Shown piece by piece: positions 9,633 to 38,163 of a DNA stretch of 64,000 bases (the first letter of the stretch is position 1; each line of letters starts with the position of its first letter). Origin of the DNA: a candidate division FCPU426 bacterium. Lineage in GTDB: Bacteria > Oederibacteriota > Muellerivitia > Muellerivitales > Muellerivitaceae. The translations under genes were made by a program, and so were the position numbers. The notes under the pieces were generated by a model. That model was not told the DNA's origin. It saw only the letters and a program-made list of their open reading frames with translations, and searched no databases. The stretch is taken from assembly GCA_963796105.1 (NCBI GenBank), contig CAWCKJ010000003.1:480001-544000 (forward strand), read 5' to 3'.

Positions 9633-9849
9633 TGCGGGCAGGACACCCGAAACCTGCGGGCAGGACACCCGAAACCTGCTCCTAGGACCCCGGAACTTGC
9701 TCCTAGGTACGGCCGGTTCTGCTACTAGGAACACTAAACCTGCTACTAGGCACCCCGGATCTGCTACTAGGAACGCCAAAACCTGCTACTAGGTACGATC
9801 GGTTCTGCTACTAGGAACACTGAAACCTGCTACTAGGAACCATGGAACC
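9633..9849. repeat. Array A: ten 21-22-bp units with conserved TGCTACTAGG-type core and variable 11-12-nt tail
   Basis: Units start at 9633, 9655, 9677, 9698, 9720, 9741, 9762, 9784, 9806, 9828. Confidence 0.9.
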
Positions 9850-10127
9850 CGGGAATCCCGAAACTCCTGGAACGGGTTCGATAAACTCACCGCTAGCTGG
9901 CCTGGAACCGTCCATGTCTCCGGAAACACCGACCCATGTCGCCGGGAACTTCATAATCCAACGAAAGCGCGCATTCCCTCCAATTAAATCCGCGCACTAA
10001 ATCCAATCCAAAGCGCGCATTTAGAAGGTGTTCGACGCGGGGTTATTCTGGTTTTAAATTCCTTTGACTGATTTATTAATTTCCGATGCTACACGGCCAA
10101 GAACCAATTCTGAAAGAAGAAAATGGT

Positions 10128-15036: not shown

Positions 15037-15427
15037 GCCGTTCTCCTCACATGAAGTGAAAAAAGAAAGGAATGACGGTTAGAGAGGCCCTTGGCAAGGG
15101 GGTCAAAGTCGGTGGCCAGACAGGGGGTCAAAGTGACTGGCCAGAGGTGGGGTCAAAGTGCTTGGCCAGCTAGGGGGTTAAAGCTCGCGGCCAATGACAC
15201 ATGGATGAACGCTCCCTTGGCATTCCGACCTCCTTGGTTTTGGAACAACCAAAAAAGGCCAAGAATAACCCTGTTGAAGGTTATCCCGCATCGTTCGCCC
15301 TCCCTTCAAACCCTAGAAATAGCTTTCTAGGGGTGCACGCTTTCGATTGGATTAGGTGCGCGCTTTGGATTGGATTTAGTGCGCGGATTCGATTGGATTG
15401 GGTGCGCGCTTTCAATTGGAATATGCA

Positions 15428-16050
15428 CAATACTGGGTTGAGCCCTCTCATACTGGGTTGTACTGGGTTGAGCCCCCCATACTGGGTTGTACTGGGTTGC
15501 CAGCCTCCAATACTGGGTTGGGCCCTCTCATACTGGGTTGTACTGGGTTGCGAGCCTCCAATACTGGGTTGGGCCCTCTCATACTGGGTTGTACTGGGTT
15601 GCGAGCCTCCAATACTGGGTTGAGCCCTCTCATACTGGGTTGTACTGGGTTGCCAGCCTCCAATACTGGGTTGCGAGCCTCCAATACTGGGTTGGGCCCT
15701 CTCATACTGGGTTGTACTGGGTTGCGAGCCTCCAATACTGGGTTGAGCCCTCACATACTGGGTTGTACTGGGTTGCCAGCCTCCAATACTGGGTTGAGCC
15801 CTCTCATACTGGGTTGTACTGGGTTGCCAGCCTCCAATACTGGGTTGAGCCCTCTCATACTGGGTTGTACTGGGTTGCCAGCCTCCAATACTGGGTTGAG
15901 CCCTCTCATACTGGGTTGTACTGGGTTGAGAACCTCCAATACTGGGTTGGGCCCTCTCATACTGGGTTGTACTGGGTTGAGCCCTCTCATACTGGGTTGT
16001 ACTGGGTTGAGAACCTCCAATACTGGGTTGCTGCCCCAAATACCGGGTTG
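15428..16050. repeat. Array B: 36 perfect and 1 variant copy of TACTGGGTTG, built from 30- and 21-bp modules (51-bp higher-order unit)
   Basis: Direct reading: CAATACTGGGTTG-AGCCCTCT-CATACTGGGTTG-TACTGGGTTG-CCAGCCTC repeated with variants. Confidence 0.97.
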
Positions 16051-16164
16051 TCCGCTTTCAGAATTCAAGCGTGGAATCTGGTAGATATTTTGGAGGAGTA
16101 TTCGTTGTTTGAATACGGCGGCAGTCGCCGTATTCAAACTGCCGGATTTAAATACTATGCGTGT

Positions 16165-16416
16165 ATGTTTGAAAAAGAGGTCGCTGAACTTACGGAAAAA
16201 ACCTTGGGAGATCTATCGCGTCGGATCTCGGAAATGAGGCATGCAAATAATTGGACCCAAGGGAAAGTCGCTGAAATGATTCGCGTTGACGTAAGAACAT
16301 ATCAAAGATGGGAATATGGGGAGATTGCCCATAATGCCATTCCTCATTTATGCAGGCTCGCGATAGTCTTCAAATGTTCTGTGCATGATTTCTTTGATGA
16401 TGCAAGACAACCGTAA
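16165..16416 (+). CDS. XRE-family helix-turn-helix regulator
   Basis: R...NWTQGKVAEMIRVDVRTYQRWEYG HTH; ORF track extends it in-frame upstream through array B. Confidence 0.85.
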   Translation: MFEKEVAELTEKTLGDLSRRISEMRHANNWTQGKVAEMIRVDVRTYQRWEYGEIAHNAIPHLCRLAIVFKCSVHDFFDDARQP

Positions 16417-18004: not shown

Positions 18005-18781
18005 TTACCCTTCCTTCTTGTCTTTGTGCCTTAGCCGTTTTTTCGATTCTGTTAATCTATAACTTTGGCCGTTGGCCTCCAGAATATGCACCCGATGGGT
18101 CAAACGGTCAATAAGAGCCCCCGTCATCCTCTCAGAACCCATGATTTCCACCCAGTTTTCGAAGGGCAGGTTGGTCGTTACCAGCAGGCTGGTCCGCTCG
18201 TAGGCCTTGCTGACAACCTCGAAGAGCAACTCGGCCCCCGCCTTGGTGAAAGGCACGTAACCCAGTTCATCCAGGACGATCAGATGGAGCCTGGCTAGCT
18301 GACGGTGGAACTTGGCCAATTGTTTCTCCTCCCGGCGCTCCAGAAGCTCCGTCACTAGGCCGGTGACGGAGAAGAACTTTACCGCTCGGCCCTGGCAACA
18401 GGCCTGGAAGGCTAGGGCCGAGGCCAGATGGGTTTTACCCGTTCCGGAGTTGCCGATCAGCAGGATGTTTTCTTTTTTGTCCATGTACTCGCCCCGCATG
18501 AGTTCCCGGATTAATTCCTGGTTGATCGAGGGCTGGGCCTTGAAATCAAATGTGTCCAAAGTCTTGAGCACGGGAAAACCGGCATCCCGGATGCGCCTCT
18601 CCTTGGCCCGGCGCTCCCGATCCAGAAGCTCTAACTCGGCCAGCTTGAGAAGGTACTGGGGATAGTCGCTGCGCTCAGTGCGGCAGAGCTGGGCCATCTT
18701 GTCGTACTCGCGCTGCATCGTGGGCAGTTTGAGTTTTTTGAGATGATGTTCCAGTAAGAGGGTCTTTTTTGATTCGCTCAT
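18005..18781 (-). CDS. istB: IS21 helper ATPase IstB
   Basis: GNSGTGKTH, LDELGY, ALIDRLTHR. Confidence 0.95.
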   Translation of the reverse strand: MSESKKTLLLEHHLKKLKLPTMQREYDKMAQLCRTERSDYPQYLLKLAELELLDRERRAKERRIRDAGFPVLKTLDTFDFKAQPSINQELIRELMRGEYMDKKENILLIGNSGTGKTHLASALAFQACCQGRAVKFFSVTGLVTELLERREEKQLAKFHRQLARLHLIVLDELGYVPFTKAGAELLFEVVSKAYERTSLLVTTNLPFENWVEIMGSERMTGALIDRLTHRVHILEANGQSYRLTESKKRLRHKDKKEG

Positions 18782-20337
18782 GCTTCACCTCCCACGGGCA
18801 TCAGTTCGCGGTAGGCCGAAAGATCCGTCCGGGCCACCTGAACATGACGCAAGTGCTCACGACCGGCAAGGCTGAAGGTGGTTAGCCTGAAATCTTCCCT
18901 GGAGTAGAGAAGTTGAGCGACAGCGTCTCGGGTATAGATCTCCATCCCCACGGCCTTCTTCACTGCCCGGTGGAGCCTGCCCATGGAATGTTTTTCCAAA
19001 AGCCTCATCGTCTTGATGAATTCCCGTGTTCCCTCGCCGTGGAGCTTTTCCTTGGATTTCATACGGCGGTGCAGAAGGGTGAAACTTTCCGGAAGATTCC
19101 AGTCTTCCAGGGGTCTGGCATGATCAAATGCTCCCGGTTTTCCCTCCAAGATCGCCAAATAATGCACTGGATTGAAGGATATGCCTTCCTTGCACCAAAG
19201 GCGATCATGCTTCGCAATACGTTTGTCCCTGTAGAAAACATCCACCCGGTCGATGTATCCCTTCACCACTACAGGATGGTGTGCCCACTCCGAAGGCACA
19301 GAATAGTCGTTGGTGTCGAAACGCACCAGGGACGAGGACGTTGCCGTTGTGGACTGCTTCAGACAGGCGTCAAAAGATGTGGCCGGCAAAGGCCGGAATT
19401 TGGCCTTATCCTCGTCAAGAAGCTGTTTTTTGGGGAGGAACTTGCCGCGCAATTTTCGTTCGAGATCCTCGCGGCATTTCACTTTCAATTGTTCGTTTAG
19501 TTCTTCTAGGGTTCCCACTTGCGGCACTGGCACCATGAAATTTAGCCGGACATATTTCACCCCGCCTTCCACGACACCTTTTTCATTTCCACGGCGTATC
19601 GTGCAAAAGTGGTGATCAAAGAGATAGTGGCTTTCCAACTGCTGAAAACTCCGTGCCAACACCCGTTTATGCACCCCGATAATTTTCGTCACGAGGGTTT
19701 TGGCGTTGTCGTAACTGATCCGCCAGGGCACTCCACCAAAGTATTCAAAAGCCCGGATGTGGCCTTCCCACACAAACTCCGTACTCTCTCGCTCAAACAT
19801 CTGTACGAAAAAGGCATCCGAATAGGGCAAGGCCATTACAAAAAACGGACGTTTGACCAACACACCGTTGAGCTTCACCAAGGCGTGCCCAAAATCCACC
19901 TGCGCCTCGCCGGGTCGGTGGATCAAAGGTACGAACACCTCGCTATTTCTCTTTTTAATCCCCCGGACCGCTCTTTTTACCTGGGTATAACAGCCGGTGT
20001 ATCCATCTTCGGCTTTCAGGCGTTCAAAAATGCGCTTAGCGCTGTGGCGCTGTTTTTTGTGGACGTGCTTGTCGTCCTCCAGGATTTGCTTGATCCGACC
20101 CAGGAAAGGCCCTACCTTCGGTTGGGGCCTCTCTTGACTCATTTGGTAACCTGGAGGCTCACTATTGGCGAGTATTTTCTTGAGGGTTTCCCAGTGAATG
20201 CCTTCTTCTGCCATCACCTGGCGCTTGGGAACGCCCTCCACCAGGATTTTCTTGCGGATTTTCGTCCATTTGTCCATGTCTTTGTACACTCCTTTTCCTT
20301 CCGGTTTCTGTAGTTCCATTTTCTGGAACCACATCAT
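18778..20337 (-). CDS. istA: IS21 transposase IstA (start uncertain)
   Basis: PGEAQVDFG, YDN, NEKGVVE. Confidence 0.93.
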   Translation of the reverse strand: MMWFQKMELQKPEGKGVYKDMDKWTKIRKKILVEGVPKRQVMAEEGIHWETLKKILANSEPPGYQMSQERPQPKVGPFLGRIKQILEDDKHVHKKQRHSAKRIFERLKAEDGYTGCYTQVKRAVRGIKKRNSEVFVPLIHRPGEAQVDFGHALVKLNGVLVKRPFFVMALPYSDAFFVQMFERESTEFVWEGHIRAFEYFGGVPWRISYDNAKTLVTKIIGVHKRVLARSFQQLESHYLFDHHFCTIRRGNEKGVVEGGVKYVRLNFMVPVPQVGTLEELNEQLKVKCREDLERKLRGKFLPKKQLLDEDKAKFRPLPATSFDACLKQSTTATSSSLVRFDTNDYSVPSEWAHHPVVVKGYIDRVDVFYRDKRIAKHDRLWCKEGISFNPVHYLAILEGKPGAFDHARPLEDWNLPESFTLLHRRMKSKEKLHGEGTREFIKTMRLLEKHSMGRLHRAVKKAVGMEIYTRDAVAQLLYSREDFRLTTFSLAGREHLRHVQVARTDLSAYRELMPVGGEA

Positions 20338-24306: not shown

Positions 24307-25866
24307 ATGATGTGGTTCCAGAAAATGGAACTACAGAAACCGGAAGGAAAAGGAGTGTACAAAGACATGGACAAATGGACGAAAATCCGCAAGAAAATCC
24401 TGGTGGAGGGCGTTCCCAAGCGCCAGGTGATGGCAGAAGAAGGCATTCACTGGGAAACCCTCAAGAAAATACTCGCCAATAGTGAGCCTCCAGGTTACCA
24501 AATGAGTCAAGAGAGGCCCCAACCGAAGGTAGGGCCTTTCCTGGGTCGGATCAAGCAAATCCTGGAGGACGACAAGCACGTCCACAAAAAACAGCGCCAC
24601 AGCGCTAAGCGCATTTTTGAACGCCTGAAAGCCGAAGATGGATACACCGGCTGTTATACCCAGGTAAAAAGAGCGGTCCGGGGGATTAAAAAGAGAAATA
24701 GCGAGGTGTTCGTACCTTTGATCCACCGACCCGGCGAGGCGCAGGTGGATTTTGGGCACGCCTTGGTGAAGCTCAACGGTGTGTTGGTCAAACGTCCGTT
24801 TTTTGTAATGGCCTTGCCCTATTCGGATGCCTTTTTCGTACAGATGTTTGAGCGAGAGAGTACGGAGTTTGTGTGGGAAGGCCACATCCGGGCTTTTGAA
24901 TACTTTGGTGGAGTGCCCTGGCGGATCAGTTACGACAACGCCAAAACCCTCGTGACGAAAATTATCGGGGTGCATAAACGGGTGTTGGCACGGAGTTTTC
25001 AGCAGTTGGAAAGCCACTATCTCTTTGATCACCACTTTTGCACGATACGCCGTGGAAATGAAAAAGGTGTCGTGGAAGGCGGGGTGAAATATGTCCGGCT
25101 AAATTTCATGGTGCCAGTGCCGCAAGTGGGAACCCTAGAAGAACTAAACGAACAATTGAAAGTGAAATGCCGCGAGGATCTCGAACGAAAATTGCGCGGC
25201 AAGTTCCTCCCCAAAAAACAGCTTCTTGACGAGGATAAGGCCAAATTCCGGCCTTTGCCGGCCACATCTTTTGACGCCTGTCTGAAGCAGTCCACAACGG
25301 CAACGTCCTCGTCCCTGGTGCGTTTCGACACCAACGACTATTCTGTGCCTTCGGAGTGGGCACACCATCCTGTAGTGGTGAAGGGATACATCGACCGGGT
25401 GGATGTTTTCTACAGGGACAAACGTATTGCGAAGCATGATCGCCTTTGGTGCAAGGAAGGCATATCCTTCAATCCAGTGCATTATTTGGCGATCTTGGAG
25501 GGAAAACCGGGAGCATTTGATCATGCCAGACCCCTGGAAGACTGGAATCTTCCGGAAAGTTTCACCCTTCTGCACCGCCGTATGAAATCCAAGGAAAAGC
25601 TCCACGGCGAGGGAACACGGGAATTCATCAAGACGATGAGGCTTTTGGAAAAACATTCCATGGGCAGGCTCCACCGGGCAGTGAAGAAGGCCGTGGGGAT
25701 GGAAATCTATACCCGAGACGCTGTCGCTCAACTTCTCTACTCCAGGGAAGATTTCAGGCTAACCACCTTCAGCCTTGCCGGTCGTGAGCACTTGCGTCAT
25801 GTTCAGGTGGCCCGGACGGATCTTTCGGCCTACCGCGAACTGATGCCCGTGGGAGGTGAAGCATGA
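24307..25866 (+). CDS. istA: IS21 transposase IstA (start uncertain)
   Basis: Identical protein to 18778-20337. Confidence 0.93.
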   Translation: MMWFQKMELQKPEGKGVYKDMDKWTKIRKKILVEGVPKRQVMAEEGIHWETLKKILANSEPPGYQMSQERPQPKVGPFLGRIKQILEDDKHVHKKQRHSAKRIFERLKAEDGYTGCYTQVKRAVRGIKKRNSEVFVPLIHRPGEAQVDFGHALVKLNGVLVKRPFFVMALPYSDAFFVQMFERESTEFVWEGHIRAFEYFGGVPWRISYDNAKTLVTKIIGVHKRVLARSFQQLESHYLFDHHFCTIRRGNEKGVVEGGVKYVRLNFMVPVPQVGTLEELNEQLKVKCREDLERKLRGKFLPKKQLLDEDKAKFRPLPATSFDACLKQSTTATSSSLVRFDTNDYSVPSEWAHHPVVVKGYIDRVDVFYRDKRIAKHDRLWCKEGISFNPVHYLAILEGKPGAFDHARPLEDWNLPESFTLLHRRMKSKEKLHGEGTREFIKTMRLLEKHSMGRLHRAVKKAVGMEIYTRDAVAQLLYSREDFRLTTFSLAGREHLRHVQVARTDLSAYRELMPVGGEA

Positions 25867-26639
25867 GCGAATCAAAAAAGACCCTCTTACTGGAACATCA
25901 TCTCAAAAAACTCAAACTGCCCACGATGCAGCGCGAGTACGACAAGATGGCCCAGCTCTGCCGCACTGAGCGCAGCGACTATCCCCAGTACCTTCTCAAG
26001 CTGGCCGAGTTAGAGCTTCTGGATCGGGAGCGCCGGGCCAAGGAGAGGCGCATCCGGGATGCCGGTTTTCCCGTGCTCAAGACTTTGGACACATTTGATT
26101 TCAAGGCCCAGCCCTCGATCAACCAGGAATTAATCCGGGAACTCATGCGGGGCGAGTACATGGACAAAAAAGAAAACATCCTGCTGATCGGCAACTCCGG
26201 AACGGGTAAAACCCATCTGGCCTCGGCCCTAGCCTTCCAGGCCTGTTGCCAGGGCCGAGCGGTAAAGTTCTTCTCCGTCACCGGCCTAGTGACGGAGCTT
26301 CTGGAGCGCCGGGAGGAGAAACAATTGGCCAAGTTCCACCGTCAGCTAGCCAGGCTCCATCTGATCGTCCTGGATGAACTGGGTTACGTGCCTTTCACCA
26401 AGGCGGGGGCCGAGTTGCTCTTCGAGGTTGTCAGCAAGGCCTACGAGCGGACCAGCCTGCTGGTAACGACCAACCTGCCCTTCGAAAACTGGGTGGAAAT
26501 CATGGGTTCTGAGAGGATGACGGGGGCTCTTATTGACCGTTTGACCCATCGGGTGCATATTCTGGAGGCCAACGGCCAAAGTTATAGATTAACAGAATCG
26601 AAAAAACGGCTAAGGCACAAAGACAAGAAGGAAGGGTAA
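25863..26639 (+). CDS. istB: IS21 helper ATPase IstB
   Basis: Identical protein to 18005-18781. Confidence 0.95.
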   Translation: MSESKKTLLLEHHLKKLKLPTMQREYDKMAQLCRTERSDYPQYLLKLAELELLDRERRAKERRIRDAGFPVLKTLDTFDFKAQPSINQELIRELMRGEYMDKKENILLIGNSGTGKTHLASALAFQACCQGRAVKFFSVTGLVTELLERREEKQLAKFHRQLARLHLIVLDELGYVPFTKAGAELLFEVVSKAYERTSLLVTTNLPFENWVEIMGSERMTGALIDRLTHRVHILEANGQSYRLTESKKRLRHKDKKEG

Positions 26640-29830: not shown

Positions 29831-29865
29831 CAGGAAATTCAGGAAGATATTTTGTGAACACTACA

Positions 29866-32637
29866 AGTAAAGGTATCCGTCGAAGTGTTGGTTGGGGTAT
29901 TTGTGGGGGTGTTCGTCGGCGTATAAGAAGGAGTATTTGTCGGAGTGAAAGAGGGGGTATCGGTAAAAGTGAGAGTGTAGGTATTAGTGTAAGTGCTTGT
30001 AAAAGTATTTGTCGGTGTATTGGTAAAAGTGTCCGTGTAAGTTGAAGTCCATGTATTTGTGTTGGTCGGGGTGTCTGTTGGGGTATCCGTCGAAGTAAAC
30101 GTTGGGGTATCCGTGGGTGTATTAGTGGGAGTATTTGTTGGAGTAAAAGAAGGAGTGTCCGTAAAAGTGGAGGTGTAGGTATTCGTATAGGTGTAAGTGA
30201 AGGTGTTGGTGGGTGTATTAGTAGGGGTGTTTGTGGGAGTGAAGGAAGGGGTATCTGTGAATGTGGGAGTGTAGGTGTTAGTAACGGTATCAGTGGGAGT
30301 ATTCGTGAATGAAGGCGTATAGGTGTTAGTCCAGGTAAAAGTATTGGTGGAAGTGTCGGTCGGAGTATTTGTTGGGGTAAAAGAAGGGGTATCGGTTGGA
30401 GTGTTTGTGGGTGTCCAGGTATTCGTATTGGTAGAGGTAAAGGTGTCCGTGAAGGTATAGGTCCATGTATTAGTGTTAGTCGGAGTGTTGGTGGGTGTAT
30501 TTGTTGGAGTGAAAGAAGGTGTATCAGTGAAAGTGGGGGTATAGGAATTGGTGTAAGTGTTCGTAAAAGTATTTGTCGGTGTATCGGTTGGAGTGTTAGT
30601 TGGTGTCCAGGTATTCGTGTTGGTGGGGGTAAAGGTATCGGTAAAAGTATAGGTCCAGGTATTGGTGTTAGTGGGAGTATTTGTGGGGGTAAAAGAAGGG
30701 GTCTCGGTCGAAGTGTACGTGTAGGTGTAAGTGGGTGTCGGTGTGGCGGTCCAAGTAAAGGTATTAGTCGGTGTATTGGTAGGGGTATTTGTGTAGGTAT
30801 AGGTAAAAGTGGGTGTCGGAGTAGAAGTCCAAGTAAAAGAATTAGTCAGTGTGTTGGTGAAAGTCTTAGTAAATGTATTGGTAGGTGTATTGGTTGGGGT
30901 GTTCGAGGGTGTGTAGCTATAGGTATAAGTGTATGTATAGGTTTTTGTGAAGGTATTAGTTGGAGTAATAGTAGGGGTATTAGTGACTGTGGGTGTTTTG
31001 GTCAGGGTTTTGGTGAAGGTAGGTGTTATGGTGGGTGTATAAGTTTTTGTAGTTGTAAATGTTGTTGTTGGAGTGCAGGTTCCGCCTCCAGGAGGAACAC
31101 CTGATTCAGGGTCCAGGTTCCCACCGGTTTTTACTTCCTGCAATAGAACTCCGTTGGAATAGAGCGCGAAGTGGTGGTCGTCGAAATATGGACCGGATTG
31201 GTTTCCATTACAGGATGTTTGGGTAGAAGGTAGGCTTGAATAATCATCCGTGAAGCTGTCCCAATTGCCGCTTACGTTTCCACATTGGGAAGACGACGTG
31301 GCGATGATGGCGAAACCCTGCATCCATCCGCCGGCAGGAATGACAGACACCCCGCTTTGGTAAGTGAGGGTGACAGAACCGGATTGGTTGGAGATGTGGC
31401 TGGAATTTTCAGTGTATGTGGGAAGGGATGTATCGATGGAATAGGCGCTACCCGCCAACACCATCGGGCCAACTTGAACACCGGAGGAGTTGTAAACTAT
31501 CCCGTTGTTCCCTACCAAAGACGTGCAACGAAGCTGGCTCTCATAAACCCAAATTCTCATGGACAAATTAGTGGCGCTTAAGGTAAGCGGCGATGAGCCG
31601 TTGTTAACGATCAGGAAAGTCCAGCGACGGTCCTGGAGACCCTGTTCACTGCAATTGACCATCAAGTCAAGTTTGAGGCTGGTCGAGGCGCCGCAAACCG
31701 GGAATCCGGATGTCAAAGGAGAAAAACCACTTCCAGGACCGTTAGACCAATAAGGCTGCATGGTAGCGGTTTGAGTCATGGTCGGAGTATTAGTGGGTGT
31801 AGTAGCTTTACTGTCCTTGGACTTTAGGTCAGGAGTCGGGGAAATCGTGGGTGTGATGGTGGGTGTTGGTATTAGGGTTGGCGAGAATGTCGGGGTAAGT
31901 GTTGGAGTTGGAGGAGATTTTAACTCTACACAATTTTCATTCGAGGGTTCACTTTCACCAATTGGATTCATGATGAAAGCTGTCACCTCGTAACACCAAT
32001 TCCCCGGCCAAGTGTAATCCTTGAACATCGCAAAAGAATTACGACCATTTCCTTCATCCGCCAAAATGGTTCCGATCATTTGGAAGGAGTCGGCAGGACC
32101 AGTTGAACGGTATATGTGGTAACCCACAGGATAATTGAATGTCCCGGCACGTGGGGAACGCCAGGACAAAACCACCGCGCCAGCCTCAATAGTGGCTGAG
32201 AAATCCCAAGGTCTTTTCAAGTCCTCAAGAGTGCGGTTTGGGGTGGCTGACGGAGTAATGGCCGGGCTTTGAGTGCCGGTTGGAGTGTGGGTAAGAGTAC
32301 CTGTTATTTCTGGCGTCTTAGTTGCAGTCGGGTTATTTCTCAAACCCCAAATAACTGCATGGGTGGGTTTAGGTAAGGGTTGTCGTTTATTTCCACCGAA
32401 CCATGGGTTGTGTCCAGGGTGGAGATTATGAGTATTTACTTTTTGATCTTGGGAATAGACAGGAGTAAGAGTCGGAGTGACAATTAAACGAGGATTATCA
32501 CTATTGGAAAAATGGCCGGTACTCCAAGGAATGTCCCAAGCGGAAGAAGGGGCAGGAAGAAATACAAAAAGAATAGCGATAAGAAATAGGAAGAAATTTG
32601 CACAAAAGAGAGAAGGCAAATATTTTTTTTGGCTCAT
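29866..32637 (-). pseudogene. Secreted Thr/Pro-rich repeat protein with FN3-like and CBM-like segments, 3'-truncated by mobile element
   Basis: Signal peptide; LSW...GYHIYRS...Y.V.A...GES.PSN FN3 pattern; ~400 aa of TPTNT repeats ending at the element terminus. Confidence 0.85.
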
Positions 32638-33025
32638 ATGCTCTCCGGCCTTTGGCCTTAGAGGAAAAAAATCTATTGGTTTTGAAAACGTTTTAAAAAA
32701 ATTGCCAGAAAATTTATGAGAATACTTTAAATTTGCCGAGTTAAACGGTCAACGAAATTGCAGTTAAAATTACTAAATTTATTTTTATCCACATCCATTA
32801 GTGCATTATGTATTAAATCCTTACAGCGGGATTAAAATGGAAAAATTAAAAACTATAAAAAGATTAATATTTGTTAGTTAGTTTTTTATTACGCATGCAG
32901 TTTAACTGTGAAAAATAAGGGAGAAATACATAAAAGAGAGAACGAGGGTCGTGAAATGTGCAATTTTTTCAAAAATACTGTATATAAAGGAACTGAAAGA
33001 GGTTTTTTATTTAGGCGGCAATTCA

Positions 33026-33259
33026 TTGGCTAAAAGTAAAAATGATCAGCAAGTCATCCTGAAATTCGGAGAGAACATCCGGAAAATTCGTAAACAGCAC
33101 GGGTGGTCACAAGGAATATTAGGTAAAAATGCCGGAATGGACGCCAATTTCATCGGCTTCGCGGAACGCGGGGAGAGAAGCATTACTCTAAAGAATATTA
33201 TCAAGATTCAAAAAGCGTTACGTTGTCCCATCGGCGAATTGTTCGAGGGTATAAAATAA
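33026..33259 (+). CDS. XRE-family helix-turn-helix regulator
   Basis: FGENIRKIRKQHGWSQ...IGFAERGERSITL. Confidence 0.88.
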   Translation: MAKSKNDQQVILKFGENIRKIRKQHGWSQGILGKNAGMDANFIGFAERGERSITLKNIIKIQKALRCPIGELFEGIK

Positions 33260-33314: not shown

Positions 33315-36014
33315 TTATTTTCCATTTAAGTATTGGACTGTCATTTTCAGTTTCTTTCTCGGCGCGTTCTCGTCCCCGCCGGGCAGGATAAATAAAACGT
33401 GCTTCCCTGGAGTAAGGTTTTTCAATTCCTTCTCCAATTCGCCGGTTTCCCGCTGGGAGCCGTCGGCTTTATCGACGTTCCAGATCACGTCCCCCAGTTT
33501 TAATCCGGTTTTATAAACGGGACTGCCGGTCCATAACACAGCCGCCACGCTCTTATCTACGAATAGCACCCCTTGGTGAAGATAAGGCAGTCCCGATACC
33601 GGGATGGCCTTGCCCCCCAGGACCCCTTTGGCCCAATATTCCATAGCTGAAACCAGGTTCCCCAATTCCCTCTTTGACCGGCATTCGAACGTGATGGCCT
33701 TTTTCAAATGAGGGATGACCAACCCGCATTGGTAAATCGTCTGGCTTTGATATTTACCGGAATAGACCAGGAGTTTATCGCTATGGATGGTTTTCAATTC
33801 CGTCCAATCAAACCCCACTCTCCACCCCTCATCTCCCGGAAGTTTGAAATGGAGAATAAGGCCGGTCCGGGATGGAAGGGCGGAGGTGACCTTGACCTTG
33901 TCGTTCCCAAACCACATGGAATATTTTTCACCGTCCTGGAGGGCTGCTAAATAAGAGCCGGCGGTATCCTCATCCAGTCGTGAATCGAGCCCCGGATTGA
34001 AGCTTTGGATCACGCAATATTCGGGAACAGGGTATATCTCATTCACTAAGCAGTTATAGTCCACATCCTCGGCACTCCAGGGCTTTGCGGGCTTGCTTGA
34101 GGAAGCGGAATGAACGGATTCGACTCCCTTCGTTCGCTCACCGCCATGTAATGGGGAATGGACAATTTCTTGATTTGCATTGGACTTATCCGAATGGCTT
34201 ATCCCAGTCTCTTTTTTAACATTTCCTATTTGCGTATTTTTGTTTCCGTTGGCAACTCCTAATTCCTCACTCCTAATTTCTAATTGTTTTTTGAGTTCTG
34301 GTTTTTCCAATCCGCATATTGTTCTCCAATTCGAGAAACTGGGCGCCTGGGCCTTCGGCAGGTATCCCTCCCATAGGCTTCGGGTAAACCAGGCCATGAC
34401 CAACAGAAAACCTATGATGGAAAGCTTCCCAATTCCCGGATTGAGGACCTCCTTTACCACTAGAAGCGAAATAACCGCGAGACCCAGGGCCAGTTTCGGG
34501 CTGTGGGGAATTTGGGATACGACATACAGCGGGAATTGGATAAAAGCGATATTCCAAATGACCCCGGAGACGGCATCGAATCTATCGCCCCAGGACGGGA
34601 CAAAATAACCGATTACCAGCTCGACGATTCCGAAGAATATGCCATAAGCCAATGGAACCATCAGAAGAAAGAGCCCCCAGTGCGCCAGCAGTCTGGAAAG
34701 GCTATTCCCTCCCCGTGAATGGCCGGAATGGGACCCGCTATGGGACTGGGGCGCTAGTTTATTGGCCAGGTAAATACTGGCGCGCAGGGGGAATTTGATG
34801 AATTTGAAAAGGTATTTGAAAATGGCCCTCGCCGCAAGCCAAGCATGATGCCCCAGGAATTTCAGATAGGCTTCCAACGATTTGCCTGCCCTGAGTCCGT
34901 CGAATGGGCTGGGATTCAGGGGATGCGGGGGATGGGCCTGCGCCGAGCTTGGTTGAGGGGCTGGGATGGCTTCGTTAGGAACATCAGGACTATTGGGAGC
35001 ATTGACCTTATCTTGATCGGATATTGATTTTGGCCGTAAACTAGCCAATCCCAGGGCAAGCTTTTCCCAAAGGGTCAGGGCTTTGCCGCCGGACGTTGCC
35101 TCCTCCAACCGCCCGTTCAGGTTTTTCCGGGCTATTTCACTTTTTTCATTAACTCCCAATTCCTCACTTCTACCTTCTAACTCCTGAGGGTCCTTTTGAA
35201 TGTTGCCCGCAGGCTTGGATCTTGGTTTTCGGGCCTTCTTTTCCGCCTCAAACTGGTCCAAATCCTTGCCTGAGACAGCGTGCGCCACAAATTCCTGAGT
35301 TTGTGGGCCGTTTAATTGCTTTTCTAATAGGATTGGTAAGATTTTATCCGCTAATAATCGGGCATCATCAAGTTTCCGATTATCTAAAAGCCGGATCAAT
35401 CGACAGGCGGCCTTCTCGGTCAAACACCATATTTTCACATTATTTGAATCATTATCATTTTCAACTTCGGAAAAGTTAGACAGTCTAACTCCTTGCCGCG
35501 CTGTTTGTAATATCAACTGCCTAGTCGCAGGGCTTAAGAGTTCCATCAAGCTAAATGCGCAACTAATCCTGTATGAAGACCACCCAGTCTTAGCCGCCAA
35601 TTCCTTCTGTTTTAAGCCAGTTAAGTTCCTAAGGTTTTCCAGGGCCATGAACTCCCCTAACCAATAGGGTTTATTGTCCCGGTTGGAGGTGAGGGCCCGG
35701 AACATGGCGTCTTCCAGGCTGATATCCAGGATCTCGGCCTCTATATGGGTCCGCCCCAAGCGTTTAAAGGCCTCTGCCCGCCTTTGGCCGGAAACAATGG
35801 CCCAAGGCGCCTGGCGGTTCCCTTTCCAGACCGTGATCCGGTCAAGGGTCCCCCCGTTTTTCAGGTAGTCCACCAGCATTTGCATCTCATCCTCTTCCAG
35901 GAAGGGCCGGGGATTCCATGACGGGACAGCCAGATCCACGATGGGAATCATGACGATCTCCGGGGGTTTGATTTGGGATTGGGCCTGGTCGGCGGGTTTG
36001 GGAACATTTTCCAT
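33315..36014 (-). CDS. ParB N-terminal domain + HTH + transmembrane segments + C-terminal PDZ-like domain
   Basis: NPR, IVSGQRRAEA, QKELAAKTGWS; hydrophobic helices in mid-protein; GSPVYKTGLKLGDVIWNVD. Confidence 0.8.
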   Translation of the reverse strand: MENVPKPADQAQSQIKPPEIVMIPIVDLAVPSWNPRPFLEEDEMQMLVDYLKNGGTLDRITVWKGNRQAPWAIVSGQRRAEAFKRLGRTHIEAEILDISLEDAMFRALTSNRDNKPYWLGEFMALENLRNLTGLKQKELAAKTGWSSYRISCAFSLMELLSPATRQLILQTARQGVRLSNFSEVENDNDSNNVKIWCLTEKAACRLIRLLDNRKLDDARLLADKILPILLEKQLNGPQTQEFVAHAVSGKDLDQFEAEKKARKPRSKPAGNIQKDPQELEGRSEELGVNEKSEIARKNLNGRLEEATSGGKALTLWEKLALGLASLRPKSISDQDKVNAPNSPDVPNEAIPAPQPSSAQAHPPHPLNPSPFDGLRAGKSLEAYLKFLGHHAWLAARAIFKYLFKFIKFPLRASIYLANKLAPQSHSGSHSGHSRGGNSLSRLLAHWGLFLLMVPLAYGIFFGIVELVIGYFVPSWGDRFDAVSGVIWNIAFIQFPLYVVSQIPHSPKLALGLAVISLLVVKEVLNPGIGKLSIIGFLLVMAWFTRSLWEGYLPKAQAPSFSNWRTICGLEKPELKKQLEIRSEELGVANGNKNTQIGNVKKETGISHSDKSNANQEIVHSPLHGGERTKGVESVHSASSSKPAKPWSAEDVDYNCLVNEIYPVPEYCVIQSFNPGLDSRLDEDTAGSYLAALQDGEKYSMWFGNDKVKVTSALPSRTGLILHFKLPGDEGWRVGFDWTELKTIHSDKLLVYSGKYQSQTIYQCGLVIPHLKKAITFECRSKRELGNLVSAMEYWAKGVLGGKAIPVSGLPYLHQGVLFVDKSVAAVLWTGSPVYKTGLKLGDVIWNVDKADGSQRETGELEKELKNLTPGKHVLFILPGGDENAPRKKLKMTVQYLNGK

Positions 36015-36213
36015 AGACAACCTCCTTATAGTTAAAAAAGCCATTATTCGCGGCCAATAACTGATTTTCTTACAATACTTTCAGTGTGTTATTATTTTCA
36101 ATAAAATTCAAAACGGATTTAGGAAAATCTTTTCCCGCCTGGAAATATTGGGTAATTAAAACAGACGGGGTTATAGAAGGCGAAAAGACGGACTGCCACC
36201 CGGGTTTAAGATA

Positions 36214-38163
36214 ATGCTATCCTGCTATAATCCATCCATGATCCAAAGCCCCTCTCCCGGCCTAGCCGCCACCCAAAGTTCCACCATGCCCCTATACCGT
36301 GATCCCTGGTTTTACGCGCTTCTGGCCGGGTTTCTCCTGCTGGTTCTGTTTTGCGCCCGCCTAAACAACGATTACGATTTCGGTTTCCACCTGAAGGGCG
36401 GCCAATGGATCCTGGAAAACCACGCTTTTCCCACCAAGGACACCTACACCTATACGGTCAACAACCATGATTACCTGGATATCCACTGGCTTTACCAGGT
36501 CACGCTCTACTCGCTTTACCGCCTCGGCGGCTATTCCCTTATATCCATCGCCAACATCGCCTTAATCCTCCTCATATTCATTATCCTCATGAAACGTCTG
36601 GGGCTCACCAGAGCCCCCTTTTGGCTTCTTGTACTCCTTTTCGGCATCGCGGTCCTGGGATGCGAACTGCGTTTCAGGGTCCGGCCCGAGTACCTCAGCT
36701 GGCTTTTCATGAGCCTCGACCTTTGGATCTTAGAAAAATGGAATCAACATCGAAAAGGCCCGATCTTTCTTCTGCCATTGATCCAATTGGCCTGGGTCAA
36801 CATCGAGGGCCTTTTCGGTATAGGCTGCGGCCTCACCGGCTTCTACCTGCTTTCTGGCCTGATCCACTCCCGCCGGTTGGACAAAAAGCTCCTGAGGTAT
36901 TTCATCCTCACCCTGGCCGCCTGCCTGGTGAACCCCCACTTCATCCGCGGGGCGTTATATCCCCTCCAGCACCTGGCCATGCTGGGGTCCCCCAATGTCT
37001 TCAAGGAAACCATCAACGAGCTCCAATCGCCCTGGACCCTGGCTGGCCGTTTCTCCTTCCTGCCGGAATGGACCCTTTACACCTACAAACTTTTTTGCCT
37101 TCTGCTACTGGTCTTATTCGCCGCGGCCTGGAAAAAAAGGAGGGCCGTCGATTATCTCCTGGCCGGTTGCTTTTTCATCTTCTCAGCCTCAGCCCAAAGG
37201 AACATCCCCCTCTTCATGCTGGTTAGTGTTCCCCTCGCGGCGTCCTGCTGGAAGGATTTGGCGTGGAAATGGCCCAAGAAAATCCATATGGCTTTCACGT
37301 CCAGGCCCTGGGCAGGCTGGGCTTTCACGGTTTTCCTTTTGGGAATCGGCATGAGGGTATTTACCAACGCCTATTACGTCTCAGAACGGCGCGCCGACCG
37401 CTTCGGCCTGGGATTGGATGAGGCCAAACTTCCGGTAAGGGCGGCAAGGTTCCTGGTGGAAAACCGCCTGGACGGGAGGATATTGAACCAAATGAACCTC
37501 GGCGGTTGGCTGGACTGGCAAGCCCCTCAAAAGGTCTTCTTGGACGGGCGCCTGGAAGTCATGGGGGAGGAACTATTCTCGGATTACTTCTCAAGCATGA
37601 AACCCGGCGGGCTGGAGCCCCTCACGGAAAAGTACGGGGTGGAAATCATGTTTTTCAATCCCGACACGGCCTTTCAATGGCTGTTGGAGCTTAAAAACAT
37701 GCCGGATTGGCGGGCGGTTTACCTGGATGACTCCACCGTGATTTACCTGAAAAAAGGTTACGCCCCAAAAGTGCCGGACCTGGACGACGGACAAGTATTC
37801 ACGAAGTGGGGCATTTCCCCCTCGATCCTGAAAGACGCGCCAACACTGCTCCAGGCGCCCCGCCCTTCGTCACGGGAATGTTTTTGGGAGGATTTCTACA
37901 GGCCTACGGATTACCCCATGGGCCTGCACCCCATCGACGCCTATTATTCCTACACAGGCCGTTTCGATCTGGCGGAGGCGGTCCACTTGGAAAACATCCG
38001 GCGGAGCCGGGGGCGATATTATGACTTGTTCTTCAACCTGGGGTCCATGTACTTTCACGCCGGAAAGTACGAACAAGCCAAGATTTGCATGGGCAGGGTC
38101 CTGGGCGAGGTTCCCGGCCTGCCGGCGGCCCAAAAGATATTGGATAGCCTTCCGACTCCATAA
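36214..38163 (+). CDS. Polytopic membrane protein (GT-C glycosyltransferase-like) with C-terminal TPR
   Basis: D.GFHL..GQWI, RP, WVN..G.F, GGWL.W, FLDGR motifs; many TM helices; FNLGSMYF.AGKYEQA. Confidence 0.7.
   Translation: MLSCYNPSMIQSPSPGLAATQSSTMPLYRDPWFYALLAGFLLLVLFCARLNNDYDFGFHLKGGQWILENHAFPTKDTYTYTVNNHDYLDIHWLYQVTLYSLYRLGGYSLISIANIALILLIFIILMKRLGLTRAPFWLLVLLFGIAVLGCELRFRVRPEYLSWLFMSLDLWILEKWNQHRKGPIFLLPLIQLAWVNIEGLFGIGCGLTGFYLLSGLIHSRRLDKKLLRYFILTLAACLVNPHFIRGALYPLQHLAMLGSPNVFKETINELQSPWTLAGRFSFLPEWTLYTYKLFCLLLLVLFAAAWKKRRAVDYLLAGCFFIFSASAQRNIPLFMLVSVPLAASCWKDLAWKWPKKIHMAFTSRPWAGWAFTVFLLGIGMRVFTNAYYVSERRADRFGLGLDEAKLPVRAARFLVENRLDGRILNQMNLGGWLDWQAPQKVFLDGRLEVMGEELFSDYFSSMKPGGLEPLTEKYGVEIMFFNPDTAFQWLLELKNMPDWRAVYLDDSTVIYLKKGYAPKVPDLDDGQVFTKWGISPSILKDAPTLLQAPRPSSRECFWEDFYRPTDYPMGLHPIDAYYSYTGRFDLAEAVHLENIRRSRGRYYDLFFNLGSMYFHAGKYEQAKICMGRVLGEVPGLPAAQKILDSLPTP

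What the first reader, a model, noticed from the sequence alone, without database searches (positions are those of the whole stretch)
33315..36014. Membrane-anchored ParB-family protein with a C-terminal PDZ-like domain
Seen: a 900-aa ORF with a ParB/Srx N-terminal domain (NPR and GxRR motifs), an HTH, a low-complexity linker, 3-4 hydrophobic helices, and a C-terminal GSP...GLKLGDVI..VD PDZ-like motif. No parA lies nearby, and the gene converges on an XRE regulator beside a giant secreted Thr/Pro gene. Known: ParB/Noc proteins are CTP-dependent DNA clamps, normally soluble or membrane-bound through an amphipathic helix. Inference: this may tether DNA to the membrane, or couple envelope peptide sensing to a DNA clamp. 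I do not recognise the architecture.
Basis: partly seen in the sequence, partly recalled or inferred. Interest (0 to 1): 0.75.

Follow-up and report, generated by a model that had tools for sequence, protein, structure and literature searches.

The report
Membrane-embedded ParB/Noc protein with PH-PDZ tail
This gene encodes a membrane-spanning relative of the chromosome-partition protein ParB whose far end carries a PH-like and a PDZ domain; it likely holds DNA against the cell membrane while its tail, predicted to sit outside the membrane, would read or grip something in the cell envelope, an arrangement not found in the ParB papers searched.

Summary
Window 33315-36014 (-) is one intact 899-aa gene. 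It has a ParB/Noc-type nucleotide-switch domain plus an HTH DNA-binding domain (profile vs Noc 7NG0 E 3e-21; Foldseek 7NFU E 1.5e-10). A disordered linker and an amphipathic helix follow, then four hydrophobic helices.

The fusion is not an artefact: 24 of 151 representative homologues carry both ends. The C-module was found only in the organism's own taxonomic family (8 of 99 phylum genomes), at up to 16 copies per genome.

A sister subfamily lacks the ParB N-domain. 19 of 20 of its genes lie directly behind a phased 21-22/42-44-bp repeat array. None of 17 ParB-N-type genes does, and neither does this one.

Best reading (inferred): a membrane-fixed, CTP-gated DNA clamp or tether whose extracytoplasmic PH-PDZ module senses or docks to the envelope. 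The binding site, CTP use and the topology of this protein are untested. No parA lies in the window, and a canonical parAB exists elsewhere in the genome.

I rate it a new variant of a known kind. Earlier notes of this scan described the arrays elsewhere in this genome without a binding protein.

The parts
33315..36014 (-). Whole coding sequence: 899 codons plus stop
   Evidence: Open frame; translation; full-length homologues of 844-939 aa
36021..36027 (-). Shine-Dalgarno-like AAGGAGG, 6 nt before the ATG at 36014
   Evidence: Read directly from the sequence
35679..35960 (-). ParB-CTPase-fold N-terminal domain (residues 19-112), with WNPR (33-36), GQRR (76-79) and SN (110-111)
   Evidence: Pfam ParB_N 24.6 bits; family profile vs Noc/ParB structures E 3e-21; Foldseek 7NFU E 1.5e-10; G76, R79, N111 and W118 invariant in 52 sequences
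35265..35663 (-). ParB/Noc-type helix-turn-helix DNA-binding domain and following helices (residues 118-250)
   Evidence: NCBIfam nucleoid_noc covers residues 20-165; second matched stretch, profile positions 194-249, to the Noc helical region; pLDDT above 90; homologous to the N-domain of the HTH-only paralogues, whose family profile hits the Noc DNA-binding domain 6Y93 at E 3e-4
34881..35264 (-). K/R-rich stretch (KKARKPRSK, residues 259-267) and disordered linker (residues 251-378)
   Evidence: pLDDT below 50 for residues 264-293 and 306-378; sequence
34755..34877 (-). Long amphipathic Lys/Trp/Phe-rich helix (residues 380-420), predicted to lie on the cytoplasmic face of the membrane
   Evidence: AF2 helix 380-420, pLDDT 80-91; similar K/W-rich stretches precede the membrane helix in single-pass relatives
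34716..34745 (-). His/Ser/Gly-rich motif SHSGSHSGHS (residues 424-433) just before the first membrane helix
   Evidence: Sequence; similar motifs in the multi-helix relatives
34371..34700 (-). Membrane domain: four helices (residues 439-471, 473-501, 506-524, 528-548). The second is only moderately hydrophobic and carries charges in relatives
   Evidence: Kyte-Doolittle scan; AF2; comparison with relatives
34059..34370 (-). Disordered linker (residues 549-652) holding an EIVHS motif (616-620)
   Evidence: pLDDT below 50 for residues 551-637; the motif is shared with paralogues L002 and L003
33609..34058 (-). PH-like beta-sandwich with C-terminal helix (residues 653-802; core 678-802)
   Evidence: AF2 with a 78-sequence alignment, pLDDT 93.9; VIA Z 9.9, rmsd 3.6 over 108 residues to PH domain 6F24; all 50 listed rows are of the PH/PTB/FERM-F3 class by my reading of their titles
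33333..33608 (-). PDZ domain (residues 803-894), with GLPYLHQG (808-815) and GSPVYKTGLKLGDVIWNVD (830-848)
   Evidence: Foldseek hits to HtrA-family proteins MucD, AlgW and DegS, E 2e-6 to 1e-3; DegP PDZ1 stretch E 0.034; PDZ_2/PDZ_6 in 6 of 78 family members at E<=0.01; language-model neighbours all PDZ, score 0.87

Best explanation
The gene encodes an integral membrane protein that joins a ParB/Noc-type nucleotide-switch domain and HTH DNA-binding domain to a C-terminal PH-like plus PDZ module. It likely acts as a membrane-fixed, CTP-gated DNA clamp that holds specific DNA at the inner face of the cytoplasmic membrane. The PH-PDZ module, predicted to lie outside the membrane, would bind an envelope peptide or protein that positions or switches the clamp.

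Shown here:
- the domain composition and folds;
- conservation of the fusion;
- a lineage-restricted, multi-copy, modular family;
- near-universal pairing of the HTH-only sister subfamily with phased repeat arrays, and absence of such arrays at ParB-N-type genes.

Inferred:
- DNA binding at defined sites;
- CTP binding;
- dimerisation through the membrane domain in place of the missing ParB C-terminal dimerisation domain;
- the N-in/C-out topology of this protein;
- ligand binding by the PDZ domain.

Suggested logic, also inferred. HTH-only members gather many copies on arrays whose 21-22-bp phasing puts every site on one face of the helix, the face turned to the membrane. Members with the ParB N-domain need no array, because a clamp could load at one site and spread.
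For: N-terminal module.
- The family profile hits Noc 7NG0 at E 3e-21 and ParB 7BNK at 8.5e-21.
- Foldseek on the full-length model: Noc 7NFU E 1.5e-10 (TM on target 0.57), ParB-parS 6T1F (0.59), KorB 8QA9 (0.61).
- G76, R79 and N111 are invariant in 52 family sequences. They align with the G and second R of GERR and the N of ENLQR in Noc and in this genome's own ParB.
- In Noc, R89A abolishes and N121S weakens CTP binding, and both block spreading and membrane recruitment (passages of PMC8429893). That those two residues sit in these motifs is recalled.

Membrane part.
- Four helices are predicted at 439-548, after an amphipathic helix.

C-terminal module.
- pLDDT 93.9; PH-like fold Z 9.9; PDZ by HtrA-family Foldseek hits.

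C-out topology, argued from the family.
- 61 of 98 C-domain proteins have exactly one hydrophobic segment before the C-domain. K+R is higher on the N-side in 41, lower in 10 and equal in 10.
- One member (P0144) has a signal-peptide-like start directly followed by the C-domain.

The fusion is conserved.
- 24 of 151 representatives carry both ends. Relatives' genomes hold 10 ParB-N + HTH + C genes.

Arrays.
- 19 of 20 HTH-only genes in relatives have a non-coding array within -700..+250 of the start. 0 of 17 ParB-N-type genes do. Only 3 other arrays lie in about 304 kb of flanks.
- In G000, 6 of 6 HTH-only genes have an array.
- Array heads recur at 2-14 loci per family in G000.

Not the housekeeping ParB.
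- A canonical parA-parB pair exists elsewhere in the genome.
Against: - No cognate DNA site was found. There is no array and no multi-copy palindrome within about 1 kb of the gene.
- Box III is altered: SN in place of EN, and the Arg of ENLQR is missing. CTP hydrolysis, and perhaps CTP binding, may therefore differ. The 2025 survey of this fold reports members that bind ATP or GTP instead (passages of 10.1101/2025.10.10.680097).
- The ParB C-terminal dimerisation domain is absent. A closed clamp therefore needs another dimer interface, which I could not test.
- For this protein AF2 draws four helices. If all four span the membrane, the PH-PDZ module is cytoplasmic. In the family, 22 of 98 proteins have two hydrophobic segments and 4 have four.
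- At sequence level the PDZ is below every curated threshold for this protein. The Foldseek TM-scores are low (0.23-0.26) because only part of the model aligns.
- The array pairing concerns the sister subfamily only. It could also reflect co-duplication of gene and array rather than binding.
Confidence: 0.42

Rival explanations
1. ToxR/CadC-like transmembrane one-component transcription regulator. The outside PH-PDZ module senses an envelope signal, and the cytoplasmic ParB-type DNA-binding module switches a promoter, much as KorB and VirB use the ParB fold to control transcription. Tethering of DNA would be a by-product, not the purpose.
For: - The layout (DNA-binding domain, membrane helix, outside domain) is the bitopic regulator layout. 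61 of 98 family proteins are single-pass.
- In the HTH-only subfamily most arrays end only about 14-100 bp before the start codon; two lie 178 and 319 bp away and one overlaps the called start (coordinates). The promoter must then lie in or at the array, as for an autoregulated operator.
- Up to 16 paralogues per genome, each with its own array head motif, resemble an expanded signalling family.
- KorB (8QA9) is among the best structural matches.
- Tandem heptad repeats in the ctxAB promoter recruit its activators (abstract of 10.1101/2021.05.14.444153).
Against: - Arrays of up to 37 phased copies are far more than an operator needs.
- The same heads recur at up to 14 loci beside unrelated genes.
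- This ParB-N-type gene has no array.
- No neighbouring gene is conserved that could be its target.
Confidence: 0.27
2. Accessory function of a mobile element or defence island. Examples: ParA-independent maintenance of an integrated element through membrane attachment, or surveillance or exclusion of incoming DNA at the membrane.
For: - Distribution is patchy and multi-copy, and confined to one taxonomic family: 8 of 99 genomes, 0 of 68 outside it.
- Neighbours differ from locus to locus and are island-like: ORF6N, XRE, HNH, RHS, RadC, PIN, DUF5131, HsdM, GmrSD, NERD.
- The window itself holds IS21, IS1595 and IS4-type transposases, RHS, Fic and zeta-toxin genes.
- PHROGs ParB-like partition families match at E 7e-11.
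- The C-domain tree shows repeated reshuffling of N- and C-modules.
Against: - No PADLOC model matches.
- No conserved partner gene, integrase or replication gene travels with it.
- No nuclease or other effector domain was detected.
Confidence: 0.13
3. In this multi-helix member all four helices span the membrane, so the PH-PDZ module is cytoplasmic. The protein would then be a membrane scaffold that brings a cytoplasmic partner, bound by PH-PDZ, next to membrane-held DNA.
For: - AF2 draws four helices of 19-33 residues.
- The Kyte-Doolittle scan finds four hydrophobic stretches.
- 4 of 98 family proteins score four segments and 22 score two.
Against: - The second helix carries conserved Arg and Asp in relatives (W.EWPFRF..R..LD.PAW), which suits an interfacial helix.
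- The same C-domain lies after a single membrane helix in 61 of 98 relatives.
- It follows a signal-peptide-like start in P0144.
- The linker before it is Pro/Ser/Thr-rich.
Confidence: 0.1

Closest known systems
Noc, the nucleoid occlusion protein of Bacillus/Geobacillus (PDB 7NFU, 7NG0, 7OL9, 6Y93)
   Same: - Best sequence and structure match for the N-module: profile E 3e-21 and Foldseek E 1.5e-10, 24% identity over 244 columns.
- A ParB paralogue without ParA that brings DNA to the membrane, controlled by CTP (PMC8429893: abstract and passages).
- The family keeps the Gly and Arg of Box II and the Asn of Box III.
   Different: - Noc binds the membrane reversibly through a 10-residue N-terminal amphipathic peptide. 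This protein has hydrophobic membrane helices in mid-chain and no such N-terminus.
- It lacks the ParB/Noc C-terminal dimerisation domain.
- It adds a PH-like plus PDZ module.
- Box III reads SN, not EN..R.
- Its NCBIfam nucleoid_noc score is 44.5 bits against a cut-off of 315, so it is not a Noc orthologue.
Canonical chromosomal ParB/Spo0J of the ParABS system
   Same: ParB-CTPase fold plus HTH. It shares 26% identity (E 6e-10) with this genome's own ParB over residues 16-159, with WNPR/FQPR and GQRR/GERR aligned.
   Different: - No parA in the window.
- No LG-R/K-GL ParA-binding motif in residues 1-20 (sequence; motif as given in 10.1101/2025.10.10.680097).
- No C-terminal dimerisation domain, and no parS found.
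- The genome has a separate canonical parA-parB pair.
KorB (RK2) and VirB (Shigella): ParB-fold CTP-dependent transcription regulators
   Same: The ParB fold is used for a purpose other than segregation. KorB 8QA9 matches the model with TM 0.61 on the target.
   Different: Both are soluble proteins, and no membrane or PDZ parts are described in the passages read. This protein is membrane-embedded.
ToxR/CadC-type bitopic membrane one-component regulators
   Same: It would work like them: a cytoplasmic N-terminal DNA-binding domain, a membrane helix and an outside sensor domain. ToxR-regulated ctxAB carries tandem repeats in its promoter (abstract). The layout of ToxR and CadC is recalled textbook knowledge.
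   Different: The DNA-binding domain here is ParB/Noc-type, not an OmpR-type winged helix. The outside domain is PH-like plus PDZ. It is not a member of that family.
PDZ sensors of the envelope-stress pathway (DegS, RseP; HtrA family)
   Same: The PDZ fold and the GSP..AGL..GD motif. The best Foldseek hits are MucD, AlgW and DegS, including peptide-bound forms.
   Different: No protease domain. The PDZ here is joined to a PH-like domain and, across the membrane, to a DNA-binding module.
F-plasmid SopB with sopC (twelve 43-bp direct repeats): centromere arrays bound by a ParB-family protein (recalled, from no call)
   Same: A ParB-family DNA-binding domain paired with a neighbouring array of direct repeats, with a period near 43 bp. 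The HTH-only sister subfamily shows periods of 42-44 bp.
   Different: Here the arrays go with members that lack the ParB N-domain. The proteins are membrane-anchored, there is no SopA/ParA partner, and arrays with the same head are dispersed over the chromosome.

Membership tests
ParB/Noc-type CTP-dependent DNA clamps | N-terminal ParB-CTPase fold | tested here: met
   Family profile E 3e-21 to Noc and 8.5e-21 to ParB; Foldseek 7NFU E 1.5e-10 and sulfiredoxin 6KY4 TM 0.80 on the target. Pfam ParB_N for the single sequence is 24.6 bits, under the 26.3 cut-off.
ParB/Noc-type CTP-dependent DNA clamps | Nucleotide-binding boxes: Box II GxxR (GERR) and Box III ENLQR | tested here: inconclusive
   Box II is GQRR, with G76 and R79 invariant. 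Box III is SN, with N111 invariant, but the Glu is replaced by Ser and the Arg is absent. Nucleotide binding itself was not tested.
ParB/Noc-type CTP-dependent DNA clamps | Central HTH DNA-binding domain | tested here: met
   NCBIfam nucleoid_noc match over residues 20-165; profile match through position 152 plus 194-249; HTH_ParB in 2 of 78 family members.
ParB/Noc-type CTP-dependent DNA clamps | C-terminal dimerisation domain that closes the clamp | tested here: not met
   Pfam finds nothing beyond ParB_N. The sequence after residue 250 is a linker, membrane helices and PH-PDZ. Whether the membrane domain dimerises could not be tested (complex prediction unavailable).
ParB/Noc-type CTP-dependent DNA clamps | CTP binding and hydrolysis; loading at a specific site and sliding | not testable with these tools
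   This needs biochemistry (DRaCALA/ITC, crosslinking, BLI).
ParABS partition system | Adjacent parA, ParA-binding motif and parS sites | tested here: not met
   No AAA_31 ATPase in the window. No LG-R/K-GL motif at the N-terminus. No repeated palindrome near the gene. A canonical parAB pair lies at another locus.
Noc (nucleoid occlusion protein) | N-terminal amphipathic membrane-targeting peptide; equivalog-level similarity | tested here: not met
   44.5 bits against a cut-off of 315. The N-terminus MENVPKPADQAQSQIKPPE is polar. Membrane attachment is through mid-chain hydrophobic helices.
PDZ domain | PDZ fold with a peptide-binding groove | tested here: met
   - Confident model, pLDDT above 90.
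- Foldseek probability 1.00 to HtrA-family chains and 0.90 to the RseP-homologue PDZ tandem 6ICC.
- Sequence level is weak: no Pfam hit for the query, 6 of 78 members at E<=0.01, PDB profile hits E 0.15-1.
- Groove occupancy was not examined.
PH-like superfold | Seven-stranded beta-sandwich capped by a C-terminal helix | tested here: met
   VIA Z 9.9 (rmsd 3.6, 108 aligned) to 6F24 and Z 9.6 to 5C6R. All 50 listed rows are of the PH/PTB/FERM-F3/EVH1 class by my reading of their titles. Z is only modestly above the tool's stated background of 7-8.
ToxR/CadC-type bitopic regulators | OmpR-type winged-helix DNA-binding domain at the N-terminus | tested here: not met
   The DNA-binding domain is ParB/Noc-type. 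No Trans_reg_C hit.

The most novel reading that the evidence does not exclude
This lineage carries a family of mutually orthogonal, membrane-embedded ParB/Noc-type proteins that physically pin defined chromosomal DNA to the cell envelope. HTH-only members sit on phased 21-22-bp site arrays scattered over the chromosome. Members with the CTP-switch domain, such as this one, load without an array and spread as clamps. The outside PH-PDZ module hooks each tether to an envelope structure. That would be a ParA-independent, trans-envelope DNA anchoring and organising system in the spirit of the old membrane-attachment model of segregation. It would also name the long-sought binding proteins of the orphan repeat arrays of these bacteria.
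Probability: 0.2. Interest if true: 0.9.

Novelty: new variant of a known kind. Interest (0 to 1): 0.72.

Why it matters
ParB-fold CTP switches are an active field. The known way such a protein meets the membrane is Noc's reversible amphipathic peptide.

A ParB/Noc module built permanently into the membrane and wired to an outside PH-PDZ domain would be a new way to couple DNA to the envelope. It would also offer a natural test of what the CTP-clamp domain is for. Within one family, genes with the domain have no site array, while genes without it nearly always have one (0 of 17 against 19 of 20).

The family also supplies candidate binding proteins for the phased 21-22-bp arrays that earlier notes of this scan flagged as unexplained protein-binding-site arrays.

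The 2025 survey of ParB-CTPase fold fusions has no occurrence of 'transmembrane' or 'PDZ' in its main text. Its supplements could not be read.

Tried and rejected
Rejected readings.
- Assembly artefact or chance fusion: rejected. It is a single open frame with an RBS, and full-length homologues exist in other assemblies.
- The chromosome's own ParB: rejected, because a canonical parA-parB pair lies elsewhere.
- A known defence protein: no PADLOC match.

Searches that gave little or nothing.
- Cognate site near the gene. TRF finds nothing between 30956 and 44002. No multi-copy palindrome. No short repeats in the two flanking intergenic regions. A k-mer scan of 29 upstream regions gave only a shared TAATCCGTTTT in 6 of them.
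- Conserved neighbours: none across 14 metagenome loci.
- The search for related loci returned nothing with A2 (no conserved stretch), with A1 in genome contigs and with the single protein in metagenome contigs. A1 in metagenome contigs then gave 15 loci.
- VIA second look for the PDZ: both VIA lists were filled by the PH-like domain, so they add nothing on the PDZ.
- Complex prediction, for a homodimer of the membrane domain (residues 375-555, two copies): never available. Dimerisation is therefore untested.
- Earlier findings by sequence, by words and near this place: nothing.

Literature.
- Searches were read at listing level. No listed title or abstract describes a membrane-spanning ParB or a ParB-PDZ fusion.

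Incomplete.
- The careful tree did not finish. The quick IQ-TREE was used.


Full report
OBSERVATION

Window 33315-36044 (-) is one open frame. The ATG at 36014 follows AAGGAGG by 6 nt. The product has 899 residues.

- WNPR, residues 33-36.
- GQRR, residues 76-79.
- An HTH stretch, residues 137-156.
- KKARKPRSK, residues 259-267.
- GSPVYKTGLKLGDVIWNVD, residues 830-848.

A Kyte-Doolittle scan finds hydrophobic stretches at about 441-470, 481-500, 505-520 and 528-548.

The gene converges on an XRE HTH gene (32951-33259, +; HTH_3 E 1.4e-10). Beyond that lies a 932-aa Thr/Pro-repeat protein with a hydrophobic N-terminus. No ParA-type ATPase lies in the window.

N-TERMINAL MODULE

Alone, the sequence scores just under Pfam's ParB_N cut-off (24.6 against 26.3 bits). 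NCBIfam nucleoid_noc gives E 1.2e-11 over residues 20-165, far below its equivalog cut-off.

A profile of 52 family N-modules (A3) matches solved structures:
- Noc: 7NG0 E 3e-21, 7NFU E 4e-21.
- ParB: 7BNK E 8.5e-21.
- Spo0J: 1VZ0 E 2e-18.
- A second stretch covers the helices after the HTH.

The full-length AlphaFold2 model has pLDDT above 90 over residues 19-260. It matches Noc 7NFU (E 1.5e-10, 24% identity, TM 0.57 on the target), Caulobacter ParB-parS 6T1F (0.59) and KorB 8QA9 (0.61).

G76, R79, N111 and W118 are invariant in the 52 sequences. In the alignments to Noc and to this genome's own ParB:
- WNPR lies on FQPR.
- GQRRAEA lies on GERRFRA.
- TSN--RDN lies on VENLQRTD.

So the Box II Gly and Arg and the Box III Asn are kept. 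The Box III Glu is Ser and its Arg is missing.

In Noc, R89A abolishes and N121S weakens CTP binding, and both block spreading and membrane recruitment (passages of PMC8429893). That these two residues sit in Box II and Box III is recalled, not shown by a call. The pocket therefore looks largely intact. Hydrolysis, and even nucleotide preference, may differ: a 2025 survey reports ParB-fold proteins that prefer ATP or GTP (passages of 10.1101/2025.10.10.680097).

MIDDLE PART

- Residues 264-378 are disordered.
- A long amphipathic helix spans 380-420.
- A His/Ser/Gly-rich motif follows (424-433).
- Four helices follow: 439-471, 473-501, 506-524 and 528-548.
- A second disordered linker spans 551-637.
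- The ParB C-terminal dimerisation domain is absent.

C-TERMINAL MODULE

Residues 630-899 were folded with a 78-sequence alignment (A2). The result has mean pLDDT 93.9 and pTM 0.89.

- Model residues 49-173 (protein 678-802) form a PH-like sandwich with a C-terminal helix. VIA gives Z 9.9 (rmsd 3.6, 108 aligned) to 6F24 and Z 9.6 to 5C6R. All 50 rows listed are of the PH/PTB/FERM-F3 class by my reading of their titles. The Z value is only a little above the tool's stated background of 7-8.
- The last 90 residues or so form a PDZ domain. Foldseek's best hits are HtrA-family proteins (MucD 8K2Y E 2e-6, then AlgW, DegS, DegQ) and the RseP-homologue PDZ tandem 6ICC. TM-scores are low (0.23-0.26), which I attribute to the alignment covering mainly the PDZ part; the tool does not print the aligned ranges.
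- Sequence-level support for the PDZ is weak but consistent. The DegP PDZ1 stretch gives E 0.034. PDZ_2/PDZ_6 match 6 of 78 members at E<=0.01 and do not match the query. PDB profile hits at E 0.15-1 are mostly PDZ-bearing proteins. The language-model neighbours are all PDZ, at score 0.87, which the tool rates as a lead only.

FAMILY

An exhaustive HMMER search found 612 representatives at E<=1e-3 and 147 at E<=1e-10. Of the 151 listed:
- 24 match both the N-module and the C-module;
- 55 match the N-module without the C-module;
- 70 match the C-module without the N-module;
- 2 match the membrane region alone.

The fusion is therefore conserved.

This genome has two more genes with the C-module: L002 (677 aa, 53-56% identical) and L003 (557 aa, 42-43%). 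Their N-terminal domain has no ParB N-domain but is homologous to residues 126-280 of the window protein. The family profile of that domain hits the Noc DNA-binding domain 6Y93 (E 3e-4).

In a sample of 99 genomes of the phylum, the C-module was found in 8, all in the organism's own family. That is 7 of 30 other genomes plus this one, and 0 of 68 genomes in 22 other families. Per-genome match counts, which the tool notes are not strict copy numbers, were 16, 9, 7, 6, 4, 3, 3 (this genome) and 1.

A quick maximum-likelihood tree of 93 C-domains interleaves ParB-N-type and HTH-only proteins. Well-supported branches force at least 10 changes of type. The window protein's C-domain groups with its same-genome HTH-only paralogue L002. 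Its N-module is closest to P0003-P0005 (50-53%), and the C-domain of P0003 is only 35% identical. The family is modular, and its modules have been reshuffled or homogenised within genomes.

ARRAYS

In this genome a profile search over all ORFs finds seven members of the shared DNA-binding domain, plus one distant ParB-like gene. Six of the seven, all HTH-only, lie directly behind a non-coding tandem array with a period of 21, 43 or 52 bp. The window gene is the exception.

I took 40 loci from seven related genomes. Two loci gave no family hit at all (L034, L055). L069 gave none either; its ORF is probably cut by the contig end. I also set aside three short fragments (L032_3919, L039_122 and L057_4030).

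Among the rest:
- 19 of 20 HTH-only genes have such an array within -700..+250 of the start (L040 has none).
- 0 of 17 ParB-N-type genes have one.
- Only 3 further arrays lie in about 304 kb outside those windows.
- None of the 14 ParB-N-type genes on metagenome contigs has a long array. L022 has 2.7 copies of a 22-mer.

Each paralogue has its own conserved core, or head, repeated every 21-22 bp. In this genome the 63 arrays fall into seven multi-locus head families of 14, 14, 7, 7, 6, 6 and 2 loci. Four of these include a gene-adjacent array. Other arrays lie beside unrelated genes.

The two head families seen in this window (15332-16051 and 9640-9841) have no adjacent family gene in this genome.

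Two earlier notes of this scan (e1-1536305, e1-7659158) described these arrays as probable protein-binding-site arrays of unknown function and as preferred insertion sites of mobile elements. I also saw nine arrays next to IS21 IstA genes. What is new here is the link to a specific protein family.

TOPOLOGY

The N-module must be cytoplasmic to meet DNA.
- Of 98 family proteins with the C-domain, 61 have exactly one hydrophobic segment before it. Another 22 have two, 8 have three, 4 have four and 3 have none.
- In the 61 single-segment proteins, Lys+Arg is higher on the N-side in 41, lower in 10 and equal in 10.
- One member (P0144) starts with a signal-peptide-like segment directly followed by the C-domain.

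So the C-module is most likely extracytoplasmic in the family. For the window protein this requires an odd number of spans. Its second helix is the least hydrophobic, and in relatives it carries conserved Arg and Asp, so it may lie at the interface. This is not shown, and a four-span topology with a cytoplasmic PH-PDZ module remains a rival.

CONTEXT

Neighbours are not conserved. They are typical of variable islands: ORF6N, XRE, HNH, RHS, RadC, PIN, DUF5131, HsdM, GmrSD and NERD. In the window they are IS21, IS1595 and DDE transposases, RHS, Fic, zeta toxin and ORF6N. PADLOC has no match. PHROGs gives ParB-like partition families. The genome has a normal parA-parB pair elsewhere.

MECHANISM

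I commit to a membrane-fixed ParB/Noc-like clamp or tether (confidence 0.42). The N-module would bind specific DNA and close on it with CTP. The membrane domain would replace the lost dimerisation domain as the second gate. The outside PH-PDZ module would bind an envelope peptide or protein that positions or switches the protein.

The array dichotomy suggests a logic. Without the clamp domain, many phased sites on one face of the helix collect many membrane-bound copies. With it, one loading site would do. All of this is inference.

Rivals:
- A ToxR/KorB-like transcription regulator (0.27), favoured by the short distance between most arrays and the start codons.
- A mobile-element or defence function (0.13).
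- A four-span topology with a cytoplasmic PH-PDZ module (0.10).

COMPARISON AND NOVELTY

The protein works most like Noc. It fails the membership tests for Noc, ParABS ParB and ToxR-type regulators (see the table).

Searches for a membrane-spanning or PDZ-fused ParB gave no such listing among titles and abstracts. The main text of the 2025 fusion survey has no occurrence of 'transmembrane' or 'PDZ'. Its supplements are closed and may list such architectures.

I rate it a new variant of a known kind.

LIMITS

- No binding site was found.
- No biochemistry was done.
- The PDZ was not folded alone.
- The tree is the quick one.
- Array counts rest on my own TRF thresholds (score>=80; period not a multiple of 3, or 21/42/63).

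Noticed in passing
window 9640-9841 and 15332-16051: Two phased non-coding arrays, with heads CTGCTACTAGG and TACTGGGTTG at spacings of 20-31 bp, flank an IS21 copy with a second IS21 nested inside it. The IS21 ends are 23-bp repeats at 9955-10019 and 15332-15420, which are reverse complements of each other. Both arrays belong to 7-locus head families that have no adjacent family gene in this genome.
   Followed up: partly
window 16160-16416 (+): A small XRE-type HTH ORF lies directly behind array B. It is the 3' part of ORF 15487-16416, whose front part is only translated repeat.
   Followed up: no
G000 genome-wide (C7:99775-100728, C3:193610-194548, C4:1266446-1267228): Y1 (IS200-like) transposase genes with a DnaA_C-like HTH tail sit next to arrays, one of which has 35 copies. 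Nine arrays abut IS21 istA genes.
   Followed up: partly
window 36110-36120 (- strand): The motif AAATCCGTTTT lies about 100 bp upstream of the start. TAATCCGTTTT occurs 100-220 bp upstream in 6 of 29 ParB-N-type genes examined. In four of them it is part of a longer conserved stretch that ends in TTGACA.
   Followed up: partly
window 34716-34745 (residues 424-433): A His/Ser/Gly-rich motif (SHSGSHSGHS) lies just before the first membrane helix and is conserved in the multi-helix family members. It may be a metal-binding loop.
   Followed up: no
window 34155-34169 (residues 616-620); L002, L003: The motif (E)IVHS / SIIHS occurs once to four times in the linker before the PH-like domain in this genome's paralogues and in P0034. 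It may be an internal ligand or a processing site.
   Followed up: no
window 29839-32637 (-): A 932-aa protein with a signal-like N-terminus, a central Cys-containing domain and about 400 residues of Thr-Pro/Thr-X repeats. It has no Pfam or NCBIfam hit.
   Followed up: no
window 36214-38163 (+): A divergently transcribed 649-aa polytopic membrane protein with a weak C-terminal TPR hit and a faint STT3-like hit (E 0.054). It may be a GT-C-type glycosyltransferase.
   Followed up: no
window 18005-20337 (-) and 24307-26639 (+): Two inverted IS21 copies (istA 519 aa, istB 258 aa) bracket an RHS-repeat gene fragment and an integrase fragment. This may be a composite element.
   Followed up: no
L082 (G000 C3:264432-265748): A third, distant ParB-like gene of 438 aa in this genome (parB_part E 1.3e-9). 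A 42-bp-period array lies inside its called ORF.
   Followed up: no
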